Shown one piece after another: positions 54,704-64,000 of a DNA stretch of 64,000 nucleotides; position 1 is the first letter of the stretch; each line of letters begins with the position of its first letter. This stretch comes from Escherichia phage vB_EcoM-UFV06. The translations under genes were made by a program, and so were the position numbers. The stretch lies in the sequence record OP555980.1. One strand, written 5' to 3'. The notes below the pieces were generated by a model, which saw nothing but the letters and a program-made list of their open reading frames with translations, was not told the origin of the DNA and searched no databases.

Positions 54704-56761
54704 CTACATTTTGAACTTTTTAGACATTCCGTTGATGTTAACCAAAGAAGCTAAGATTTGAGAAACTTCGTTTTCCTCTTCTTTTGATTCTTCTACAAGG
54801 AATTGATTAAATCCAGCCATTGGACGAACTTCACCAGTTTCCATCAGATGGTCGCCATCATATACTGATTCTTCTAATTGTTCAGAAGGAGGAACGATTG
54901 TACCTTCGATTAGATACTTGTTATAAGCAGTTTCTTTCATCATGTACGTACTTACTTTATTAATCTTCAGTAAAATTCCACGCGGCAAAATAACTTCAGC
55001 TTCGGATGGAAATCCTGATAAATGACCTGGAACGATAACTTTAACTCGTTCAGCTCCTTTAATTACCATACCTACATTAGTTTCAGCGTCTTCATTCGCA
55101 TATGTAGAATGACTACCCATATGCATTAAATCTTCAGCATCAACTGAACCTTCTCCTTCACCAGAAAATACTGCTCCGGAATCATCTAAGGCCATATAAT
55201 TTTTACCATATTCACCGAAGATATTTGGCTTGAGTGAAGTAGATACAAAGTTCTTGAAATAGAACATTTTATTTTCTATATTATGACGTAAAGTTTTAAA
55301 GGTAACTTCTTGCCCACGATAAAGAGTAGTTCCTGGAGGAAGAACTGAACCTTTAGAAAATGCAGAATCCAGCGTCTCAATATGTTTAATAGCTCGTTCC
55401 ATATATTCTTCACGGGTAGAATCAGGTTTACCTAGAAGGAACGAGTTCATTTCAACATATGAATCTGCGCAATAATCTTCAATTACATCAGACTCAGCCT
55501 GAGTTAATCCTTTTGGAGTTACTTCAGTGCTTGCATATTCATATGCCTGAGCAGCAGATTCATCAATTAATTTATAAATTCCATTCATTACAAATTGAAT
55601 AATAGCTGTCTTTTCATCTGGTGTAGCTTTAGAACCTTTAACTAAATCATTGACAATTTTCTTAATAACATCAAAGCTATTAGAAATATTAATGTCAGCA
55701 AGATCGCTTAAAATTTTATCAGTTTTATAATCAAAGAATTCTTTATTCTTTAAATATTCTTGAGAACCTTGATATGTTATATCGCTCTGCAGCTTGATAG
55801 ATGGATCGCGTAAACGTGCATGGGCCAATGCAATATGATTTCGGAAGCTTTCGAGTTCATAATCACTAGATTTAAAACGAGAAGCACTTCTCATACCACC
55901 GATAGCTCCTTTGCTAAAGTTTGAACCAACCTGAATAACGCCAGAGTTCATTGGTCCTTCTGCTTTATATACCGGAACTTTAGATTCAAACTCTTGATAT
56001 TTCTTAGCAGCGAAGCTATCACCCTGAAGTGAAGCATCAACAGTAGAATATTGAGCTTGTGCTGCTAATCGACGACTAATTTTAGTTTTCTGAATAACAG
56101 CTTGATCCGTGCGCTTATCATTTTCTAAAGCAATAGAAGCAGCAACAGCAACAGCTTTAGGAACAGCATTACCTGTTTTAACGTCTACATAAACATCACC
56201 AACCTTTGATTCAACTTTTGTGAATAACTCGGTTGAAATAGGAGGTACACCTGGAATGTCTTCTAAATTGGCATTTTTACGGTAAACCATAATATATGCG
56301 TACTTTTTATCATAATCCCAGATTTCCTTTAAAAGAACATATCGACCTGCTCCTTTAGTACGTACTAAACGGTCAGCAATAACTTGCATTTGCCGAGCAG
56401 CGCCATTTGTTTTACTTTTTAGTACGCGGAATAAGCATGCATCAATTTTATACTGTTTCATTGTTTGAAGAGCAGTATCAAAAACAGCATTAATGACGCC
56501 AATTGGATTTCCACCCAAGTTTTTAAGCTTAACTAATGATAGTTTCTCATTAACACCTATCATTACGATATGCATCATTTTGTCGCCTGGCTTAACGTTT
56601 TTATTCGTATCACCGCCAGAGGTGTATGTACAAAATCTAAATCCAGGAAGCACGCTTTCTTCACCTGCTTGAATAGCAAAAATTTGAGGTATTTTATGCT
56701 TAGGATTTAAGTTAACAACCGGCGCCGAAGCGCCGTCAAATAATTCTGTAATAAGTTCCAT
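54704..56761 (-). CDS. Alt-like mono-ADP-ribosyltransferase, paralog 2
   Basis: 685 aa; N-terminus MELITELFD shared with neighbour; Arg-STS-ExE signature (LYRGQ, FVSTSL, SEAEVILPRG). Confidence 0.8.
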   Translation of the reverse strand: MELITELFDGASAPVVNLNPKHKIPQIFAIQAGEESVLPGFRFCTYTSGGDTNKNVKPGDKMMHIVMIGVNEKLSLVKLKNLGGNPIGVINAVFDTALQTMKQYKIDACLFRVLKSKTNGAARQMQVIADRLVRTKGAGRYVLLKEIWDYDKKYAYIMVYRKNANLEDIPGVPPISTELFTKVESKVGDVYVDVKTGNAVPKAVAVAASIALENDKRTDQAVIQKTKISRRLAAQAQYSTVDASLQGDSFAAKKYQEFESKVPVYKAEGPMNSGVIQVGSNFSKGAIGGMRSASRFKSSDYELESFRNHIALAHARLRDPSIKLQSDITYQGSQEYLKNKEFFDYKTDKILSDLADINISNSFDVIKKIVNDLVKGSKATPDEKTAIIQFVMNGIYKLIDESAAQAYEYASTEVTPKGLTQAESDVIEDYCADSYVEMNSFLLGKPDSTREEYMERAIKHIETLDSAFSKGSVLPPGTTLYRGQEVTFKTLRHNIENKMFYFKNFVSTSLKPNIFGEYGKNYMALDDSGAVFSGEGEGSVDAEDLMHMGSHSTYANEDAETNVGMVIKGAERVKVIVPGHLSGFPSEAEVILPRGILLKINKVSTYMMKETAYNKYLIEGTIVPPSEQLEESVYDGDHLMETGEVRPMAGFNQFLVEESKEEENEVSQILASLVNINGMSKKFKM

Positions 56762-56764
56762 GAT

Positions 56765-58858
56765 TTATCCTTGAACGAACTTGTAAGGCATGTTTGTAAT
56801 ATCTATGCAAGACGCAATAATTCCAAGAGATGATTCTACTTTCTGTTTAATATTTGATGAAACAAATGATGCAAAGTCAACTCTGTCTTCTATTTCAATA
56901 TCACCTGTCATTGCAACCAATTCACCAGTTTCCATTAAATGGTCTCCATCATAGATTACCGATTCGGTGAGCTCTTCCGTGGTCATAACTTCAGCTTGAA
57001 TGAGTTTTGTATTATTAGATGTTGTTCCGTCATTATTAGAAGCATCGATTATTTTATTAACTTTGACCATCAATCCACGCGGTAGAATAACTTCAGCTTC
57101 TGTTGCTATTCCGAGACTTCCTGGATATACAACATTAACTTTATGAGCTCCATCAATTGCCCATCCTATTTGAACTTTAACATATTCAGGATTTTCTTTA
57201 TACGCTCTTATTTCGTTTGGATTAATAGTTATTCCTTCTTCATTTTTATCAACTGTTAATTCATTGCGAGCTTCTGGTTCTAAAAGACCAATACCAGCAT
57301 GTGTGATTCCAAAACGTCCAAAAATGATAGGAGTTAAAGAAGTAGATACAAAATTTCTGAAGTAGAACACTTTATTTTTAACTAACGCTTCATATATAGG
57401 AGCAGTCATACTTTGAGCACGATAAACTGTAATGCCTTCTGGTATACGGTCACCATTTTCAAAAGCTGAATCTAAGTTATTTATAGCAGATTCAATTTCT
57501 TTTTCACTCATTACATCGTATCGTTCTGGATTGTAACGACCTAAAAGAAGATTATTGATGTCAGTATATCCTGAACCGCAATATTCTCTAATGCCACGCT
57601 TTTGTGATGGAGTATATTTAGAACCATCGCGGGCAATAGTAATATCAATCATTGGACCAGCACCAATTCCAGAAAAACTGTAAATCATTCGTTTGAGGAA
57701 TTTAGTTTTTGCTGCGTTCCAGGAATTTTTAGTTATTTCTTCCCAGACTTCATCTGGTTGTCCTTTACGATTTTTATTATGATTAGCAAGCCATTTATCT
57801 TTATAATCTTCAAAGAATTGATTTACAGCTGCTGCGTATTTCTCTAAACATTTTATTGAAGTAGTTGGTTCATTTTTAATTGCATTAAAAATTACTTCTT
57901 TAATTTTTTCTGAAACTTCACCGACTTGACTCATTGGAAAGAATTTATAATCATAGTGAAGTTCATCTGCCGTTCCTTCAGCAATAATTTTTGCTGCCTT
58001 TGTTTTAGAAGCTAATGAATTAATTCCAATTTTCATTTCTTCTGCTTCGGGAATTAAAGGTGCAGTAGCTGGTTTATTAAAATTAGCTGCTGTAGATTCA
58101 TACTTCTGGAATAATTCACTTTCAAATCTAGAAGATTCCAATGACTGACTTTGTGCAATTGCTCTACGGGAAATTTTAACTTTAACGATTACAGCTTGGT
58201 CAGAACGTTTATCATTTTCTTGCGCAATAGATGCTGCAATTGCTTCATTTTTAGTTACTTGAGCTCCAGTATCTTTATTGATATAAACATCACCGACCTT
58301 CGATTCAACTTTAGTAAAGAGTTCAGTGCTAATTTCTGGAACTCCTGGAATGTCTTCTAATGATACATTTTTGCGATGTATAAGAATATATGCATACTTT
58401 TTATCGTAATCCCAGAGTTCCTTAAGAAGGACGTATCTGCCACCTGAACGACTACGGATAAGTCTATCAGCAATAACTTGAATTTGTCGAGCTTGGCCAG
58501 CAGTTTTAGACTTAAGAATACGAAGCATGCAGGCATCAATTTTATATTGACGCATCGTTTGCATTGCAACAGTAAAAACTGAATTGATATAATTAATTGG
58601 GCTTGGACCAAGACCTTTTAATTTAGCAATTGAGCCTTTAGCAGTTAATGTAAAAGGAACAATATGCATCATTTTATCGCCCATCTTTAAATCGCGATTA
58701 GTATCACCTCCAGATGTATAGGTACATAAACGAAAGCCTGGTTGTTCAATTGCATCATCAACATGAACTGAAAAAATTTGTGGTATTTTCTTCTTTGGAT
58801 TTAAGTTTGTAATCGGAAGAGTAGTATCTTCGTCAAATAATTCTGTAATAAGTTCCAT
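56765..58858 (-). CDS. alt: Alt ADP-ribosyltransferase (head-packaged RNAP-modifying enzyme)
   Basis: 697 aa; MELITELFD N-terminus; VYRAQ, FVSTSL, TEAEVILPRG; TATAAATA on minus strand upstream. Confidence 0.8.
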   Translation of the reverse strand: MELITELFDEDTTLPITNLNPKKKIPQIFSVHVDDAIEQPGFRLCTYTSGGDTNRDLKMGDKMMHIVPFTLTAKGSIAKLKGLGPSPINYINSVFTVAMQTMRQYKIDACMLRILKSKTAGQARQIQVIADRLIRSRSGGRYVLLKELWDYDKKYAYILIHRKNVSLEDIPGVPEISTELFTKVESKVGDVYINKDTGAQVTKNEAIAASIAQENDKRSDQAVIVKVKISRRAIAQSQSLESSRFESELFQKYESTAANFNKPATAPLIPEAEEMKIGINSLASKTKAAKIIAEGTADELHYDYKFFPMSQVGEVSEKIKEVIFNAIKNEPTTSIKCLEKYAAAVNQFFEDYKDKWLANHNKNRKGQPDEVWEEITKNSWNAAKTKFLKRMIYSFSGIGAGPMIDITIARDGSKYTPSQKRGIREYCGSGYTDINNLLLGRYNPERYDVMSEKEIESAINNLDSAFENGDRIPEGITVYRAQSMTAPIYEALVKNKVFYFRNFVSTSLTPIIFGRFGITHAGIGLLEPEARNELTVDKNEEGITINPNEIRAYKENPEYVKVQIGWAIDGAHKVNVVYPGSLGIATEAEVILPRGLMVKVNKIIDASNNDGTTSNNTKLIQAEVMTTEELTESVIYDGDHLMETGELVAMTGDIEIEDRVDFASFVSSNIKQKVESSLGIIASCIDITNMPYKFVQG

Positions 58859-58882
58859 GTTATCCTCTCTAGTGTTTATTCT

Positions 58883-58890
58883 ATTTATAA
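58883..58890 (-). promoter_or_regulatory. late-promoter motif upstream of alt
   Basis: Plus TATTTATA; about 25 nt upstream of alt ATG at 58858. Confidence 0.5.
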
Positions 58891-58914
58891 AATTAAAGGC
58901 CCGAAGGCCTTTAA

Positions 58915-59100
58915 TTAATAGAGAGCTAAAAGAGTACGATATACTTCAAACTTTGGACCTTTTTCATATGGATCAAATCTTTCCGTGAATTCATCATATG
59001 CTAGTTTATCTGGGAATTCAAGAATAACCTGCGATACCGCAGTGGAAACATCTCCACCTTCTTTTTGAGCCACGACAATTGTTTCTAAGTAAGCTTTCAT
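58915..59100 (-). CDS. hypothetical small protein
   Basis: 61-aa ORF overlapping stop of gene 30 by 4 nt. Confidence 0.45.
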   Translation of the reverse strand: MKAYLETIVVAQKEGGDVSTAVSQVILEFPDKLAYDEFTERFDPYEKGPKFEVYRTLLALY

Positions 59101-60560
59101 AAACCAGTTACCTCATGAAAATCGCCAAATACATCTTCGAACGTATTAGCTTTAGTTTTATCTTCACGTAAACGAATTGCAATTGGAAGAAATAGCTTAA
59201 CGTAATCAGTACGTCCATCTAATTTTACCCAGCCGTTGCATTCGCACTCTAGAATTTTTCCAATATAATAATTTTGGTTTTCCATAATGCGAGTACGATC
59301 AAGTTCATGCGATTTTATACCGGCTTTATCTTTTAAGCCTGAACCAGCATTTACTTTAATTTTTCCACACTCTGATTCAAGAATGAAACCACCTGCTTTA
59401 GTAGGGTCTTTACGGTGAGGATAAATTCCTACAATTTTTAAATCAACATCAATTACTTCTTTAAATTTATAAAGATTTTTTGAACGAGCATTTTCCCATA
59501 ATCCATCGATATTTTTGAGAATAATACCTTCAAGACCTTGGTCAATATACTTTTTATAAATTACCTTAGCTTCATCTAGGTTATTTACTATCTGGTTTTC
59601 AATTAAAATTACTTTATCATAGCCTGATGTCATTTGTTCTAGTTTAGAAAAACGTACATCATATTTTAAACGAAATGCTGGAAGACCATATATTTCTACT
59701 AATGGAACATAGTCCCAGACCTGAAACTTCATGCATTGTGCTTCTTTTTCCGAAATGGTTCCCTTTAAAGATTTATTAGCGATTCCATTAGAAGTAGTAC
59801 GTGATTCAGCTACTTCGGCGAATTCTTTAGCTTTACTAATTTCAGGATAAGCATCAAAAAGAAAATCTAGGCCTTCTGGCTCCTTTTTAACCTGCTCATG
59901 GTATACCAATTCGCCATCAATTAACACACCTTCTGGATGAATCTGGCGAGCTTCTGCAGTCATTTTGATTAACTCTTCTTTAAGAAGATCTAATCCTAGA
60001 TATTCATTGCCAGCTCGTGATAAAAGACGAACATCATCTAATTCATCACCTCTGACTTCAGCAAAACAGCGAGCTCCATCAGCTTTTAGCTGTGCAAAGG
60101 CTGGAAATTTGATATTCTTATTAATGCCTTTTTCGTCATAAGAACTTGCTAGCATTTGAGGTTGTTCAGGAATTAAACCTGGCCAAACTTTGTTTGCAAT
60201 AGATACTGATGCACCGCATTCAAGGTCTCGCATCATCACCCGACGCAAAACTTCAACATCATCTTTTTTACCATCGGTGATATATCCGATTAATTCCTCA
60301 ATTGCCGCATTTCCAGTCAATTTCCGAGTAGCTAACGTGAATTCAATGAAGTCAAGCATATCGGTAAGAGTCAACATTCCAAAACTCTGGGTAGTAATAC
60401 CCGGTTTAGGCCATTTCTTGATATAATACTGTAACCCACGAGAATAAGTCAGACGATATACTCGTTTAAGCAATTCATTATCTTTATTCTTTTCAAGAAT
60501 TGCTTGCTTCTGCTTAGTTGAACCAATAGATGCTATTTCGTTCAGAATTTTAAGAATCAT
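59097..60560 (-). CDS. 30: ATP-dependent DNA ligase
   Basis: 487 aa; near-identical to T4 DNA ligase as recalled (MILKILNEIASIGSTKQKQAILEKNK...; adenylation lysine motif KADGAR). Confidence 0.95.
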   Translation of the reverse strand: MILKILNEIASIGSTKQKQAILEKNKDNELLKRVYRLTYSRGLQYYIKKWPKPGITTQSFGMLTLTDMLDFIEFTLATRKLTGNAAIEELIGYITDGKKDDVEVLRRVMMRDLECGASVSIANKVWPGLIPEQPQMLASSYDEKGINKNIKFPAFAQLKADGARCFAEVRGDELDDVRLLSRAGNEYLGLDLLKEELIKMTAEARQIHPEGVLIDGELVYHEQVKKEPEGLDFLFDAYPEISKAKEFAEVAESRTTSNGIANKSLKGTISEKEAQCMKFQVWDYVPLVEIYGLPAFRLKYDVRFSKLEQMTSGYDKVILIENQIVNNLDEAKVIYKKYIDQGLEGIILKNIDGLWENARSKNLYKFKEVIDVDLKIVGIYPHRKDPTKAGGFILESECGKIKVNAGSGLKDKAGIKSHELDRTRIMENQNYYIGKILECECNGWVKLDGRTDYVKLFLPIAIRLREDKTKANTFEDVFGDFHEVTGL

Positions 60561-60826
60561 TGTTCATCCTTTAGAGTTTGGTTTACAGCTCTATTATAAA
60601 TCAATTCATCATTAAGCTCAGTCAAAGACCTGTGGTACGTGGTTCTAACTTTATTTCCTTGCATCCAGTGCTTGACGTAAATGAAACCTTGCTCTACACA
60701 TTTTTTAAAAATTCGTTCGTCTTTTTGAGCTCGGAATTCTGGATTGCATCTAAAAAATTGATTTACGTGACCGTAATCACGTGTAGTATTACCTTCATTT
60801 TCATAAATAGTATGAACAACAAACAT
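60557..60826 (-). CDS. hypothetical protein (30.1 position)
   Basis: 89-aa ORF. Confidence 0.5.
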   Translation of the reverse strand: MFVVHTIYENEGNTTRDYGHVNQFFRCNPEFRAQKDERIFKKCVEQGFIYVKHWMQGNKVRTTYHRSLTELNDELIYNRAVNQTLKDEQ

Positions 60827-61668
60827 TAGAATGCTCCTTGTAAAATATTATCACCACTAGTAGGTCTATTATACAAATACTCTATGCCACCGGGTTTAAT
60901 ATAATTCCATGTCTGAAACGGATACACATGATATGGATGTGTATAATATGGATGGTATGGATTTAATCCAGGAGTTCTCCAGGTAGTGTTCCAAGGAAAA
61001 GAATCGTTTTTAATCATCTTTTCAATTACATCTTTTATAGCTTTTTCACTATCAAAACTTTCTTTATTTTCCTTCGATGGAAAAAGCTTATTCTCTACAT
61101 CATTCCATGTATAAACTCGCTGTGCAGTTTTTGGAATACTGTCACGCTCCCCTCGAGCCATCCAATAAACAGGAACATTTAATATTTCACTCGCATGATC
61201 GCAGTGGTGAGCGAGATCGTCAATATAACAAATTACGTTATATTTCTCTTTTGCCTTTTTGAATAACTCTTCTTTTGAAGAATCATGACCACACATCAAT
61301 ACTTCTGAGAAGGCACCAGGAAAAAGAGCATTCAAATTAAATTGACGATTCAGCAGAGCGTCAATAGAATCACCCAGTGCTGTAACAGCTACAAAATTAT
61401 AATCTTCTTTTAATTTGTTAATTACACACAGGGCATCTTTATATGGAGACAAATAGCGAATAAAATCTGAACGATTATACTTTTCGATTAATTTAACACC
61501 AAGTTCTTCATCGCAATTAAAGAGCTTACCAGGAGAAATAAATTTTTCATCCTGAATCATTTTTAAAATATGTTCTAACGGAAGATTATATTTTTGGGCA
61601 AAATAAGGAAGGCCTGATTGCCAGCTTAAACACACCCCGTCAATATCAGTCAAAATAGTAGGCTTCAT
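60826..61668 (-). CDS. HAD-superfamily hydrolase-like protein (30.2 position)
   Basis: 280 aa; N-terminal motif LTDIDGV (DxDG[TV]) typical of HAD phosphatases. Confidence 0.55.
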   Translation of the reverse strand: MKPTILTDIDGVCLSWQSGLPYFAQKYNLPLEHILKMIQDEKFISPGKLFNCDEELGVKLIEKYNRSDFIRYLSPYKDALCVINKLKEDYNFVAVTALGDSIDALLNRQFNLNALFPGAFSEVLMCGHDSSKEELFKKAKEKYNVICYIDDLAHHCDHASEILNVPVYWMARGERDSIPKTAQRVYTWNDVENKLFPSKENKESFDSEKAIKDVIEKMIKNDSFPWNTTWRTPGLNPYHPYYTHPYHVYPFQTWNYIKPGGIEYLYNRPTSGDNILQGAF

Positions 61669-62129
61669 AGAGAGTCTCTTAATAGGTTTAACACATCAAT
61701 AAATTCAGCTTCGGTTAGTATTGTATCATCTTTTGTTAGACCACTAGCCATGCTGTGCTTCAAAACTTTTCCTTTTGAGGCTTGTAAGGCATCACGAAAC
61801 CCCTTGTTTTGAATCGCTGCTTCAAAATATGCATTTGTATACAACTCTTTCCATGCTGCAGAGTATCTTGAAAAGGGAATTCCAAGCCAGAAAAGCGTCC
61901 CACGGTCCGCAGCTCTTGCATAAGCTCTTCCACTTTGCTGGGCGGCCAAGCCGGAGAGCCTAAATATACGACGTTGTTGTTCAACATTTTTCACCTTGCA
62001 TCCTTGGAGGAATCCTTCAAGACCTCCGAATTGAATACCATCCATGACGAAAGGCCATTGGGCGAAATTACTTAATGCACACGATGGCCATCTAAAATTG
62101 CTTCTAATCTCTAACTCAGACATTTTCAA
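61665..62129 (-). CDS. NADAR/YbiA-family (DUF1768) protein (30.3 position)
   Basis: 154 aa; SNFAQWPFVMDGIQF matches the YbiA/NADAR core (SNFAAWP..DG) as recalled. Confidence 0.6.
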   Translation of the reverse strand: MKMSELEIRSNFRWPSCALSNFAQWPFVMDGIQFGGLEGFLQGCKVKNVEQQRRIFRLSGLAAQQSGRAYARAADRGTLFWLGIPFSRYSAAWKELYTNAYFEAAIQNKGFRDALQASKGKVLKHSMASGLTKDDTILTEAEFIDVLNLLRDSL

Positions 62130-62322
62130 TACTTATAATTTCAACATCAGCCCAATGACCATAGCAAGGAAGACGAAATTCAACTGGCCAGTTAGGGTCC
62201 TTTTCTAATATAATAGACTTAACTTGTGGTTCTTCATGTTCATCAGTATATGGATTTTTATCTGTTACTTTATATGTGACCTTAATGTATTGAATTCCAA
62301 AAATCTTATTAATTATATTCAT
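62116..62322 (-). CDS. hypothetical protein
   Basis: 68-aa ORF in 30.x array. Confidence 0.45.
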   Translation of the reverse strand: MNIINKIFGIQYIKVTYKVTDKNPYTDEHEEPQVKSIILEKDPNWPVEFRLPCYGHWADVEIISIENV

Positions 62323-62516
62323 ACTAATTCCTTTAATCCGTAAATAGGAGACAATTCATCACCCATACGAAGGTCTTCATTTCCATCTACCCAGGAAACA
62401 ATATAAGCCTCTTTTATTTGAACACCACTCCATTTAAACGGAGGTAGAACCTTAGAAATTAATCCAGGTATACCAACTCCCTTTAATTCAACAGTTTGAC
62501 CTAAAAAGAATTTCAT
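62319..62516 (-). CDS. hypothetical protein
   Basis: 65-aa ORF in 30.x array. Confidence 0.45.
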   Translation of the reverse strand: MKFFLGQTVELKGVGIPGLISKVLPPFKWSGVQIKEAYIVSWVDGNEDLRMGDELSPIYGLKELV

Positions 62517-62803
62517 TAGAACCTCATCTGAAAACCATGCGATTTAACATTACCGCCGCCAATATCAGAAATATTAATTTCACGCGCAATCGAAGGATCG
62601 ATGTCAATTTCACGATTAAGTTTAGCGATAGCTAAAGTATCACGCCCATTTACAGTACGGAACTCTAAAGGACAAACCACATCAACGTAATTTTTAATCG
62701 ATTCACTGGTAGGTTGCAAATGAGCAGGAAGGTCTTTGGGCGCCTTTGAGAAAACCACTTCACAGAAATTTTTGCGGGTGTCAAAATAAGTAGTCATAAA
62801 CAT
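62516..62803 (-). CDS. hypothetical protein
   Basis: 95-aa ORF; GNRA hairpin upstream. Confidence 0.5.
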   Translation of the reverse strand: MFMTTYFDTRKNFCEVVFSKAPKDLPAHLQPTSESIKNYVDVVCPLEFRTVNGRDTLAIAKLNREIDIDPSIAREINISDIGGGNVKSHGFQMRF

Positions 62804-62844
62804 AATATTTTCCTCAGTAAGGGGCCGAAGCCCCTCATTTATTT

Positions 62845-63210
62845 TTAAATATCAAATTCGTTAAGAACTACATCAAAGATTGCTTCAAGATGCTCAGGTT
62901 TAGCTCTGTTACTCAGAATATGACGAATCCAAGTTTTAACCAAAAGCTTACGATTATCACCATTCCAGCAAGGATGAGTCCCTAAATCGCGTTGACGAAA
63001 ATCATCATCCAAAGCGATTTTGAAGTTGGAACCTTCCATTGTGATTGAAACCGTGATGCCATTTTCAAATCGCATATAAACATAATTAGGAGTCATATAC
63101 TGTTCAATTTCGCATACTGATCCATTTTGATGTTTCCAAAGGCAAATAGTATCAATAGAACCTGCAATACCATTAGAAACATATTTACGTTCAAAGTTGA
63201 TGTAGTTCAT
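62845..63210 (-). CDS. hypothetical protein
   Basis: 121-aa ORF. Confidence 0.5.
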   Translation of the reverse strand: MNYINFERKYVSNGIAGSIDTICLWKHQNGSVCEIEQYMTPNYVYMRFENGITVSITMEGSNFKIALDDDFRQRDLGTHPCWNGDNRKLLVKTWIRHILSNRAKPEHLEAIFDVVLNEFDI

Positions 63211-63278
63211 TTTTGTTCTCCGAGATGTTTAATTGCGGTACAGGTATATAATATCATATCCTGTACCAAAGTAAACAA

Positions 63279-63611
63279 TTATTTTACTACTTTCCAGTGC
63301 TGCATGTCAAGTTTACCGACTTTTTTCATCTTCTCAATTAAGCGTTCGGCACGTTGGCGAGCTGTAACATAATACCATTCACCTAATTCATTTTGTTCAA
63401 TTTTTCCAACGATTACTGTATTCAATTCATAAATCCAACCAGTAAAGAAATTATGAACTTGAATTGTAAAGGTGAAATCTGTTCCCATACCTTCTGTTGT
63501 TTCTACTTCAATAATATCACCTTCAACTGCCATTAAGAACCACATAGTTTCGTTATATTCACCATTGAAGCATTTAGCTTTAACTGAAGCGTTCAGATTA
63601 ATCGTTTTCAT
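63279..63611 (-). CDS. hypothetical protein
   Basis: 110-aa ORF; early-promoter motif TTTACA-17-TAGTAT and GGAG SD upstream. Confidence 0.5.
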   Translation of the reverse strand: MKTINLNASVKAKCFNGEYNETMWFLMAVEGDIIEVETTEGMGTDFTFTIQVHNFFTGWIYELNTVIVGKIEQNELGEWYYVTARQRAERLIEKMKKVGKLDMQHWKVVK

Positions 63612-63638
63612 TTTATTCTCCTTTGTTTGTGTAAGATA

Positions 63639-63667
63639 ATACTATCACAAAGGAACCATACTGTAAA
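63639..63667 (-). promoter_or_regulatory. early promoter, TTTACA-17 bp-TAGTAT
   Basis: Same motif family upstream of 63279-63611 gene. Confidence 0.5.
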
Positions 63668-63697
63668 CAACTTTATGCAATCGTTGGAAAATAAAAA

Positions 63698-63717
63698 AGG
63701 ACTCCCGAAGGAGTCCT
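63698..63717. terminator. stem-loop
   Basis: AGGACTCCCGAAGGAGTCCT preceded by A-run. Confidence 0.5.
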
Positions 63718-63721
63718 CAAC

Positions 63722-63898
63722 TTATGCTTTCTGCTTACCAAAACGAGAAGCATCATCTCGAAGAACCGCACGTGCTCGGCGCATGATCTTCTCAACAGTT
63801 TGATTGATACGAGAGTTCGACCCACGCTTGTAGCCAGCGCGTTTAGAATCACCAACTTTCTTTTCAACTGCTTTCTTTGCTTTAACTTGTTTTGCCAT
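63722..63898 (-). CDS. hypothetical small basic protein
   Basis: 58 aa from ATG at 63898-63896 (MAKQVKAKKAVEKK...), Lys/Arg-rich. Confidence 0.45.
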   Translation of the reverse strand: MAKQVKAKKAVEKKVGDSKRAGYKRGSNSRINQTVEKIMRRARAVLRDDASRFGKQKA

Positions 63899-64000
63899 TA
63901 TAAATTCTCTTTTAAATGAAAATGCAGGACTTATTGGCATTGCCTGCGCAAGCCCTCAAGGGGAACATAGGTTTTTGGGTATTTAACGACCAGGATAACC

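What the first reader, a model, noticed from the sequence alone, without database searches (positions are those of the whole stretch)
60826..62129. NADAR/YbiA-like and HAD-like genes next to DNA ligase: candidate ADP-ribose processing module
The 154-aa ORF (61665-62129) has the SNFAQWPFVMDGIQF core that I recognise from the YbiA/NADAR (DUF1768) family, members of which remove ADP-ribose from guanine bases. The adjacent 280-aa ORF (60826-61668) starts with the HAD phosphatase motif LTDIDGV. With two Alt ARTs about 3 kb away, the window holds both writers and a potential eraser of ADP-ribosylation. The NADAR-like protein could be an anti-defence factor against DNA ADP-ribosylating toxins (DarT-like), or could process ADP-ribose products.
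Basis: partly seen in the sequence, partly recalled or inferred. Interest (0 to 1): 0.6.

Follow-up and report, generated by a model that had tools for sequence, protein, structure and literature searches.

The report
Known anti-DarT NADAR plus HAD nucleotidase
The small gene is this T4-like phage's copy of AdfN, a published enzyme that strips ADP-ribose off phage DNA to defeat the bacterial DarTG1 defence. Its neighbour is a separate, uncharacterised HAD phosphatase that resembles deoxyribonucleotidases and is not needed for that defence evasion.

Summary

The small ORF is the ortholog of T4 gene 30.3:
- It is 95% identical to T4 gp30.3 and matches Pfam PF08010 at E=1e-67.
- Its true start is the ATG at 62123, giving 152 aa, not the TTG at 62129.
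- Its predicted fold matches only the three solved NADAR structures.
- The catalytic residues E36, K43 and H123 and the C-terminal helix are intact.

T4 gp30.3 is already published as AdfN, a guanine-ADP-ribose DNA glycohydrolase that is necessary and sufficient to overcome DarTG1 (Nat Commun 2025; Toxins 2024).

The 280-aa ORF is T4 gp30.2. It has a genuine HAD fold with all four catalytic motifs conserved (D8xD10, T96, K132, D150D151) and a helical C1 cap. Its nearest relatives are 5'(3')-deoxyribonucleotidases (NT5C). It ends in a disordered tail.

The idea of an "ADP-ribose module" is not supported:
- Published T4 transposon sequencing shows 30.2 and alt are dispensable on DarTG1 hosts, while 30.3 is strongly depleted.
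- In one Klebsiella phage lineage the two genes lie about 100 kb apart.

Overall interest is low.

The parts
61665..62123 (-). adfN (T4 gene 30.3 ortholog). Encodes a 152-aa NADAR-fold ADP-ribosylglycohydrolase for guanine-ADP-ribose on DNA, which acts as the anti-DarTG1 factor.
   Evidence: 95% identical to T4 gp30.3 over 152/152 residues. PF08010 E=1.3e-67. AF2 model has pLDDT 92.8. Foldseek against the PDB hits only YbiA 2b3w (E=2.8e-5, TM 0.68), PnNADAR 8bau and G. lovleyi NADAR 8bat. The family profile hits YbiA at E=0.0024. 17 of 36 relatives also hit PF08719 NADAR. The function of the T4 ortholog is published.
62016..62018 (-). Codon GAA for catalytic Glu36 of AdfN.
   Evidence: Read directly from the sequence. 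The column is invariant in alignment A2. It aligns with the Glu of the YbiA E-x6-K motif. The E36A mutant of T4 AdfN is inactive.
61995..61997 (-). Codon AAG for catalytic Lys43 of AdfN.
   Evidence: Read directly from the sequence. At least 90% conserved in A2. The K43A mutant of T4 AdfN is inactive.
61755..61757 (-). Codon CAC for His123, the subfamily-defining residue in the last beta-strand of phage gp30.3-type NADARs.
   Evidence: Read directly from the sequence. Invariant in A2. It lies in the predicted last strand, E120-123. PMC11125620 states that this position is Glu in the YbiA family, Asp in the BC4488 family and His in phage NADARs.
61084..61668 (-). Residues 1-195 of the gene 30.2 ortholog: the HAD-superfamily phosphatase domain with an alpha-helical C1 cap. 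It is NT5C-like (5'(3')-deoxyribonucleotidase-like).
60826..60993 (-). C-terminal tail of gp30.2 (residues about 226-280, plus the stop codon). It is rich in aromatic residues and proline, is predicted disordered, and ends with a short conserved motif, G-IEYLxx(Q/R)PT.
   Evidence: pLDDT is below 50 for residues 226-268 and 270-280. The tail is variable or absent in many homologs. The motif EY[LWY]..[QR]PT occurs in 16 of 57 homologs of at least 240 aa.
62116..62322 (-). Gene 30.4 ortholog (68 aa), immediately upstream of adfN and overlapping its start. Included as context only.
   Evidence: phrog_2042 E=2e-35. It overlaps the adfN ATG. In T4 it was the only other significant hit on the DarTG1 host (log2FC -1.79, padj 0.014). 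It is restricted to 720 T-even-type phage records.

Best explanation
The locus holds two independent early genes of a T4-type phage, packed into the conserved 30.9-to-30 gene array.

(1) adfN (30.3).
- It encodes a single-domain NADAR enzyme.
- During infection of a DarTG1-carrying host, the DarT1 toxin ADP-ribosylates guanines in phage DNA and blocks replication.
- AdfN hydrolyses the guanine-ADP-ribose bond and releases ADP-ribose, so replication continues. Catalysis uses the E36/K43 pair, with H123 in place of the usual Glu/Asp.
- This mechanism is shown experimentally for the 95%-identical T4 protein. It is inferred by orthology for this allele.

(2) Gene 30.2.
- It encodes a Mg2+-dependent HAD phosphomonoesterase.
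- Inferred roles of the conserved residues: Asp8 is the nucleophile that forms the aspartyl-phosphate intermediate. Asp10 is the general acid/base. Thr96 and Lys132 hold the phosphate. Asp150 and Asp151 bind Mg2+.
- A helical C1 cap closes over a small substrate.
- The substrate is most likely a (deoxy)nucleoside monophosphate, as for cellular 5'(3')-deoxyribonucleotidases. The enzyme would then trim or rebalance a nucleotide pool during infection.
- The fold and motifs are shown here. The substrate and physiological role are inferred.

The two genes are neighbours because of conserved Straboviridae gene order, not because they act in one pathway.
For: AdfN:
- Orthology and synteny with T4.
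- PF08010 E=1e-67.
- NADAR-only fold hits and a profile hit to YbiA.
- PF08719 hits in 17 of 36 relatives.
- E36, K43 and H123 are conserved, and the C-terminal helix 138-151 is intact.
- None of the 7 differences from T4 (positions 55, 64, 67, 72, 82, 89, 125) falls in an invariant column.
- Published genetics and biochemistry of T4 AdfN.
- An independent Tn-seq confirmation: log2FC -7.25 on DarTG1.

gp30.2:
- All four HAD motifs are conserved, and 95 of 100 homologs carry D[IV]DG[VI].
- Confident AF2 model.
- The family profile's best PDB hit is cdN, E=0.009. That alignment also pairs the invariant W16-x-S18-G-L with cdN's F-E-S-G-L.
- The wider family has 1,516 representatives.
- Its distant members hit Pfam NT5C (18 of 38, best E=4e-10) and 3bwv (E=1.5e-4), followed by the yeast pyrimidine nucleotidase SSM1 and XMP phosphatase.

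Independence of the two genes:
- In T4, 30.2 has log2FC -0.12 on DarTG1 and tolerates insertions at 72 of 72 sites.
- The two genes are separated in Klebsiella phage TNG87.
- No 30.2 relative lies next to the NADAR on jumbo-phage-like contigs.
Against: - The window's own AdfN allele has not been assayed.
- The 30.3-30.2 adjacency, with overlapping stop and start codons, is conserved as far as Acinetobacter phage fHyAci03 in another subfamily. That leaves room for some functional coupling.
- The Nat Commun paper states that T-even phages probably encode an unidentified factor needed for full AdfN activity.
- Transposon data measure necessity only under one condition.
Confidence: 0.85

Rival explanations
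1. gp30.3 (NADAR) and gp30.2 (HAD) act in sequence as one ADP-ribose processing unit: the NADAR releases ADP-ribose from DNA, and the HAD phosphatase processes the released ADP-ribose or a phosphorylated derivative. gp30.2 might alternatively be the unidentified factor that potentiates AdfN.
For: The genes overlap by 4 nt (ATGA) and are co-oriented. The adjacency is conserved in Tevenvirinae and in the Twarogvirinae phage fHyAci03. The AdfN paper proposes an unknown potentiating phage factor.
Against: Insertions in 30.2 are neutral on a DarTG1 host (log2FC -0.12, p=0.61), while 30.3 insertions are lost. In TNG87 the NADAR moved to the tRNA cluster and 30.2 stayed by the ligase. Divergent PF08010 genes on large contigs lack a 30.2-like neighbour. 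The nearest relatives of gp30.2 are nucleotide monophosphatases. ADP-ribose has no phosphomonoester for a HAD phosphatase to remove (established chemistry).
Confidence: 0.05
2. Writer-eraser pairing. The NADAR reverses ADP-ribosylation installed by the two nearby Alt transferases, for example to limit self-modification of phage components.
For: Two full-length Alt paralogs with PF03496 domains lie 3-7 kb away in the same orientation.
Against: alt is neutral on DarTG1 hosts (log2FC -0.01), and 30.3 is non-essential without DarTG1 (27 of 28 sites hit). The activity shown for T4 NADAR is on guanosine-ADPr DNA, with none on thymidine-ADPr. Alt is known to modify proteins on arginine (established knowledge). 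The alt-ligase-30.x order is simply the conserved T4 map.
Confidence: 0.03
3. gp30.2 is a nucleic-acid end-healing 3'-phosphatase that prepares nicks for the adjacent DNA ligase, like the HAD phosphatase domain of T4 polynucleotide kinase. On this view it is not a nucleotidase.
Against: gp30.2 has an alpha-helical C1 cap of about 80 residues between motifs I and II. HAD enzymes that act on macromolecules, Pnkp included, are typically capless (established knowledge of the HAD superfamily). Similarity to PseT is limited to 25 residues around motif I. Nucleotidase hits are consistently stronger. T4 already has PseT.
Confidence: 0.08

Closest known systems
T4 AdfN (gp30.3), anti-DarT factor NADAR (Johannesman et al., Nat Commun 2025, PMC11825919; in vitro activity in Toxins 2024, PMC11125620)
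   Same: Orthologous: 145 of 152 residues identical, same length, and same position between 30.4 and 30.2. Catalytic E36 and K43, subfamily His123 and the C-terminal helix are all present.
   Different: Seven substitutions (window residue/T4 residue: R55/G, S64/A, A67/S, A72/Q, I82/V, A89/P, M125/I), none at an invariant position. This allele has not been tested.
DarG1 / DarT1-associated NADAR (BC4488 family; G. lovleyi NADAR 8bat) and E. coli YbiA (2b3w)
   Same: Same YbiA/NADAR fold and the same E-x6-K catalytic motif. The literature shows the same guanine-ADPr hydrolysis for these enzymes.
   Different: No N-terminal extension and no linked DarT toxin, so it is an orphan antitoxin. It has His where these proteins have Asp or Glu in the last strand. 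T4 AdfN does not rescue DarT1 toxicity in uninfected cells. Sequence similarity is only marginal (E=0.0024 profile-to-sequence, 16-18% identity).
5'(3')-deoxyribonucleotidases of the NT5C family (Pfam PF06941; human/mouse cdN and mdN; S. epidermidis 3bwv)
   Same: HAD core plus helical C1 cap. DxDGV motif I is followed by an aromatic residue at +6 and then S-G-L. These are the best structural and profile matches.
   Different: Identity is only 14-20%, and the window protein does not reach the Pfam threshold. gp30.2 carries an extra disordered tail of about 85 residues with a conserved terminal motif. Its substrate is untested.
T4 polynucleotide kinase/phosphatase (PseT) HAD domain
   Same: A phage-encoded DxDGT/V HAD phosphatase.
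   Different: PseT's phosphatase is capless and fused to a kinase. Similarity to gp30.2 is confined to motif I.

Membership tests
NADAR superfamily, phage gp30.3 (AdfN) subfamily | Sequence membership in the curated family model | tested here: met
   PF08010 Phage_30_3 at E=1.3e-67, 226 bits against a cutoff of 36. The window protein gives no direct PF08719 hit, but 17 of 36 family members hit PF08719 NADAR, best E=1.5e-7.
NADAR superfamily, phage gp30.3 (AdfN) subfamily | [quoted passage not shown] | tested here: met
   AF2 model with pLDDT 92.8 and pTM 0.88 has 7 helices and 6 short strands. The only Foldseek PDB hits with probability of at least 0.98 are 2b3w, 8bau and 8bat, all NADARs.
NADAR superfamily, phage gp30.3 (AdfN) subfamily | Catalytic Glu and Lys (E36 and K43 in T4 AdfN; E-x6-K) | tested here: met
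   Both residues are present. E36 is invariant and K43 is at least 90% conserved in A2. They align to the YbiA E...K motif. Mutants are inactive in T4.
NADAR superfamily, phage gp30.3 (AdfN) subfamily | [quoted passage not shown] | tested here: met
   H123 is invariant and lies in predicted strand 120-123.
NADAR superfamily, phage gp30.3 (AdfN) subfamily | Intact C-terminal helix (the RB69 frameshift that removes the last 15 residues abolishes function) | tested here: met
   Full-length 152 aa with helix 138-151.
NADAR superfamily, phage gp30.3 (AdfN) subfamily | Hydrolysis of guanine-linked ADP-ribose on DNA, and protection from DarTG1 | not testable with these tools
   Shown for the 95%-identical T4 protein and confirmed by Tn-seq. 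Inferred for this allele.
HAD (haloacid dehalogenase-like) phosphatase superfamily | Motif I DxDx[T/V] with both aspartates. The second Asp marks phosphotransferases rather than dehalogenases. | tested here: met
   D8-I-D10-G-V. D8 and D10 are invariant in A1 and A3. 95 of 100 homologs carry the motif.
HAD (haloacid dehalogenase-like) phosphatase superfamily | Motif II Ser/Thr, motif III Lys, motif IV acidic pair | tested here: met
   T96 is at least 90% conserved (Ser in a few). K132 is invariant. D150 and D151 are at least 90% conserved.
HAD (haloacid dehalogenase-like) phosphatase superfamily | Rossmannoid core with a cap inserted after motif I (C1 cap) | tested here: met
HAD (haloacid dehalogenase-like) phosphatase superfamily | Reaches a curated model threshold (Pfam/NCBIfam) | tested here: not met
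   The window protein has no Pfam hit at E<=0.1 and no relevant NCBIfam hit. Relatives hit PF00702, PF13419 and PF06941.
NT5C 5'(3')-deoxyribonucleotidase family (PF06941) | Profile or sequence similarity specific to NT5C rather than generic HAD | tested here: inconclusive
NT5C 5'(3')-deoxyribonucleotidase family (PF06941) | Aromatic residue six positions after the second Asp, which contacts the nucleoside in cdN/mdN (role recalled from the structural literature) | tested here: met
   The invariant W16 aligns with Phe of cdN in DGVLADFESGL.
NT5C 5'(3')-deoxyribonucleotidase family (PF06941) | dNMP phosphohydrolase activity | not testable with these tools
   In T4 HIDEN-SEQ on DarTG1, 30.3 has log2FC -7.25 and 30.2 has -0.12.
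   Adjacent in T4 and fHyAci03. About 100 kb apart in TNG87. No 30.2-like neighbour next to the NADAR on jumbo-phage-like contigs.

The most novel reading that the evidence does not exclude
gp30.2 is not a housekeeping nucleotidase but a conditionally essential counter-defence enzyme. It would dephosphorylate a nucleotide-derived immune signal or a toxic nucleotide made by a defence system absent from E. coli K-12 and from the DarTG1 assay. Its conserved C-terminal IEYLxxQPT motif would dock it onto a phage or host partner. A related open possibility in the same array is that the small upstream protein gp30.4, not gp30.2, is the unidentified T-even factor that potentiates AdfN.
Probability: 0.1. 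Interest if true: 0.6.

Novelty: already known. Interest (0 to 1): 0.15.

Why it matters
The main element, AdfN, is an established example of a lytic phage carrying an orphan enzymatic antitoxin. Finding an intact copy here only predicts that this phage resists DarTG1.

The useful residue of the analysis concerns gp30.2:
- It is present in about 1,450 phage records and has a wider family of more than 1,500 sequence clusters.
- It is a catalytically intact, NT5C-like HAD phosphatase with no published function.
- Existing genetic data argue that it is not part of the DarTG1 counter-defence.

That narrows what should be tested for gp30.2. It also points to gp30.4, rather than gp30.2, as the nearby candidate for the missing AdfN cofactor.

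Tried and rejected
- Single-sequence searches of the PDB gave only marginal hits (YbiA E=0.48; cdN E=1.1). Family profiles and fold searches were needed.
- NCBIfam gave nothing useful for gp30.3, gp30.2 or gp30.4.
- Literature searches for 'gp30.2' and 'gene 30.2' returned no papers.
- I tested whether the 254-aa gene downstream of a divergent NADAR on a 308-kb contig is a 30.2 relative. It is not (hhalign probability 0.06).
- I tested whether gp30.2 resembles the T4 PseT phosphatase domain beyond motif I. It does not (25 aligned columns, probability 12.8%).
- I checked whether TNG87's gene upstream of 30.2 is a 30.4 homolog. It is not.
- The promoter and terminator scan of 58800-64000 showed no enrichment over shuffles and was not used.
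- L-2-haloacid dehalogenase was considered for gp30.2 because of the top Foldseek hits. It was rejected because the second motif I aspartate (D10) and the motif IV acidic pair are conserved. Also, those matches have rmsd 7-9 A, against 4.6-5 A for the nucleotidases.
Full report
**Source and observation.** The window is a Tequatrovirus genome segment. Region 60500-62400 is 100% identical to Escherichia phages vB_EcoM-UFV09, UFV05, UFV10 and UFV11, and matches 727 phage records at megablast level. The ORF list confirms both reading frames on the minus strand: 61665-62129 (154 aa from a TTG) and 60826-61668 (280 aa). They sit in a head-to-tail array with DNA ligase (59097-60560), a DUF3045 gene (60557-60826) and two Alt ADP-ribosyltransferase paralogs (54704-56761 and 56765-58858). 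The gene order is that of T4: alt, alt.1, 30, 30.1, 30.2, 30.3, 30.4 and onward. The quoted peptide strings are present. One correction: the T4-annotated start of the small gene is the ATG at 62123, giving 152 aa. This ATG overlaps the stop of gene 30.4 by 8 nt. The stop of 30.3 overlaps the ATG of 30.2 by 4 nt.

**The small gene is adfN (T4 30.3).**
- The protein is 145/152 identical to T4 gp30.3 and matches Pfam PF08010 'Phage_30_3' at E=1.3e-67.
- A profile of 36 diverse relatives hits E. coli YbiA in the PDB at E=0.0024. That alignment places E36...K43 on YbiA's E-x6-K motif.
- 17 of the 36 relatives also hit Pfam NADAR PF08719, best E=1.5e-7.
- An AlphaFold2 model (pLDDT 92.8, pTM 0.88) searched against the PDB returns exactly three credible hits: YbiA 2b3w, Phytophthora NADAR 8bau and Geobacter lovleyi NADAR 8bat. 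Everything else has probability of at most 0.10.
- E36 and H123 are invariant and K43 is at least 90% conserved. H123 lies in the last predicted strand.
- The C-terminal helix 138-151 is intact.
- The seven differences from T4 avoid all invariant columns.

**This is already published.**
- Johannesman et al. (bioRxiv 2024; Nat Commun 2025, PMC11825919) renamed T4 30.3 as adfN, 'anti-DarT factor NADAR'. They found it by crossing the DarTG1-sensitive phage RB69, whose 30.3 carries a frameshift removing the last 15 residues, with T2 and T4.
- AdfN was necessary and sufficient for DarTG1 resistance. The E36A and K43A mutants were inactive. Purified protein removed ADP-ribose from DarT1-modified DNA.
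- Toxins 2024 (PMC11125620) independently showed that T4 gp30.3 hydrolyses guanosine-ADPr but not thymidine-ADPr. It defines the phage subfamily by a His in the last strand.
- A T4 transposon screen (HIDEN-SEQ, bioRxiv 2025.11.20.689424) confirmed loss of 30.3 insertions on a DarTG1 host (log2FC -7.25, adjusted p rounded to 0 by the tool).
- GenBank already labels the Acinetobacter phage homolog 'Member of NADAR superfamily'.

**The 280-aa gene is T4 30.2, a HAD phosphatase.**
- It is 95% identical to T4 gp30.2 and belongs to phrog_420, of unknown function. No paper mentioning gp30.2 was found.
- In an alignment of 36 homologs down to 34% identity, all four HAD motifs are conserved. D8 and D10 of motif I (DxDGV) and K132 of motif III are invariant. 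T96 of motif II and D150-D151 of motif IV are at least 90% conserved.
- The AF2 model is confident for residues 1-222 (pLDDT mostly above 90) and disordered from 226 to the end.
- Foldseek gives 105 PDB hits at E<=1e-3, and the 50 listed are HAD-fold proteins. The lowest-rmsd matches are cytosolic and mitochondrial 5'(3')-deoxyribonucleotidases.
- The family profile's best PDB hit is mouse cdN (E=0.009). That alignment pairs the invariant W16-x-S-G-L with cdN's F-E-S-G-L just after motif I.
- An exhaustive profile search shows that gp30.2 belongs to a much larger family: 1,516 representatives at E<=1e-3.
- Of 38 members sampled from the lower-scoring end of the 150 best hits (E about 1e-20 to 1e-55, 22-42% identical to gp30.2), 18 hit Pfam NT5C (best E=4e-10). 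Their profile hits 3bwv (E=1.5e-4), then the yeast pyrimidine nucleotidase SSM1 and an XMP phosphatase.
- I conclude that gp30.2 is a catalytically competent, C1-capped HAD phosphomonoesterase. Its most likely substrate is a (deoxy)nucleoside monophosphate. The fold and motifs are shown; the substrate is inferred.
- The window protein itself does not pass any curated model threshold. NT5C membership therefore remains inconclusive.

**Are the two genes one module?** The evidence says no.
- In the DarTG1 HIDEN-SEQ table, 30.2 insertions are neutral (log2FC -0.12, p=0.61) and alt insertions are neutral (-0.01). 30.2 tolerates insertions at 72 of 72 sites on K-12.
- The 30.3-30.2-ligase order is ancestral. 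It is also found in the Twarogvirinae phage fHyAci03. But it is separable. In Klebsiella phage TNG87 the PF08010 gene lies inside the tRNA cluster, while 30.1, 30.2, ligase and alt stay together about 100 kb away.
- Divergent PF08010 genes on 16-308 kb contigs have no 30.2-like neighbour.
- ADP-ribose has no phosphomonoester for a HAD phosphatase to remove.
- Nothing connects AdfN to Alt's protein substrates.
- The proximity of 'writers' and 'eraser' reflects the conserved T4 map.

**Residual open points.**
- The Nat Commun paper concludes that T-even phages probably encode another factor needed for full AdfN activity.
- In the Tn-seq data the only other significant gene is 30.4, the 68-aa gene whose stop overlaps the adfN start (log2FC -1.79, padj 0.014).
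- That could be polarity on adfN, or 30.4 could be the missing factor.
- 30.4 is restricted to about 720 T-even-type records, against about 1,500 records for adfN.
- I could not resolve this with the tools available.

**Verdict.** The central element is already known. Interest is low.

Noticed in passing
window 62116-62322 (-): The gene 30.4 ortholog (68 aa) has a stop codon that overlaps the adfN ATG. In the published T4 Tn-seq it is the only other gene significantly depleted on a DarTG1 host (log2FC -1.79, padj 0.014). The AdfN paper posits an unidentified T-even factor needed for full AdfN activity. 30.4 is confined to about 720 T-even-type phage records. The depletion could be a polar effect, or 30.4 could be the missing cofactor.
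   Followed up: partly
window 61760-61987 (-): An internal out-of-frame ORF corresponds to T4's annotated gp30.3' (75 aa). It is still open but only 73% identical to T4 30.3', while the overlapping 30.3 frame is 95% identical. This pattern suggests no purifying selection on the 30.3' frame.
   Followed up: partly
window 60826-60993 (-), gp30.2 residues ~226-280: The tail is predicted disordered and is rich in aromatic residues and proline (PWNTTWRTPGLNPYHPYYTHPYHVYPFQTW...). It varies or is missing among homologs, yet it ends in a short conserved motif, G(T)GIEYLxx(Q/R)PT, found in 16 of 57 long homologs. This may be a docking peptide for an unknown partner.
   Followed up: partly
window 54704-56761 and 56765-58858 (-): There are two full-length Alt ADP-ribosyltransferase paralogs in tandem, 41% and 71% identical to T4 Alt. 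Both have PF03496 domains, and the middle and catalytic regions have diverged. T4 itself keeps only the remnants alt.-1 and alt.-2 of the second copy.
   Followed up: partly
L002 5001-5468 and neighbours (ENA contig of 308 kb): A divergent gp30.3-type NADAR (38% identical) lies on a large, probably jumbo-phage contig. Within about 3-5 kb are a NUDIX hydrolase and a Thg1-like gene. This is a different nucleotide-processing neighbourhood from the T4 one.
   Followed up: no
L006 3001-3450 (Klebsiella phage TNG87): In this phage the NADAR gene is embedded in the tRNA gene cluster rather than next to the ligase. This shows that the gene has relocated within Straboviridae.
   Followed up: partly
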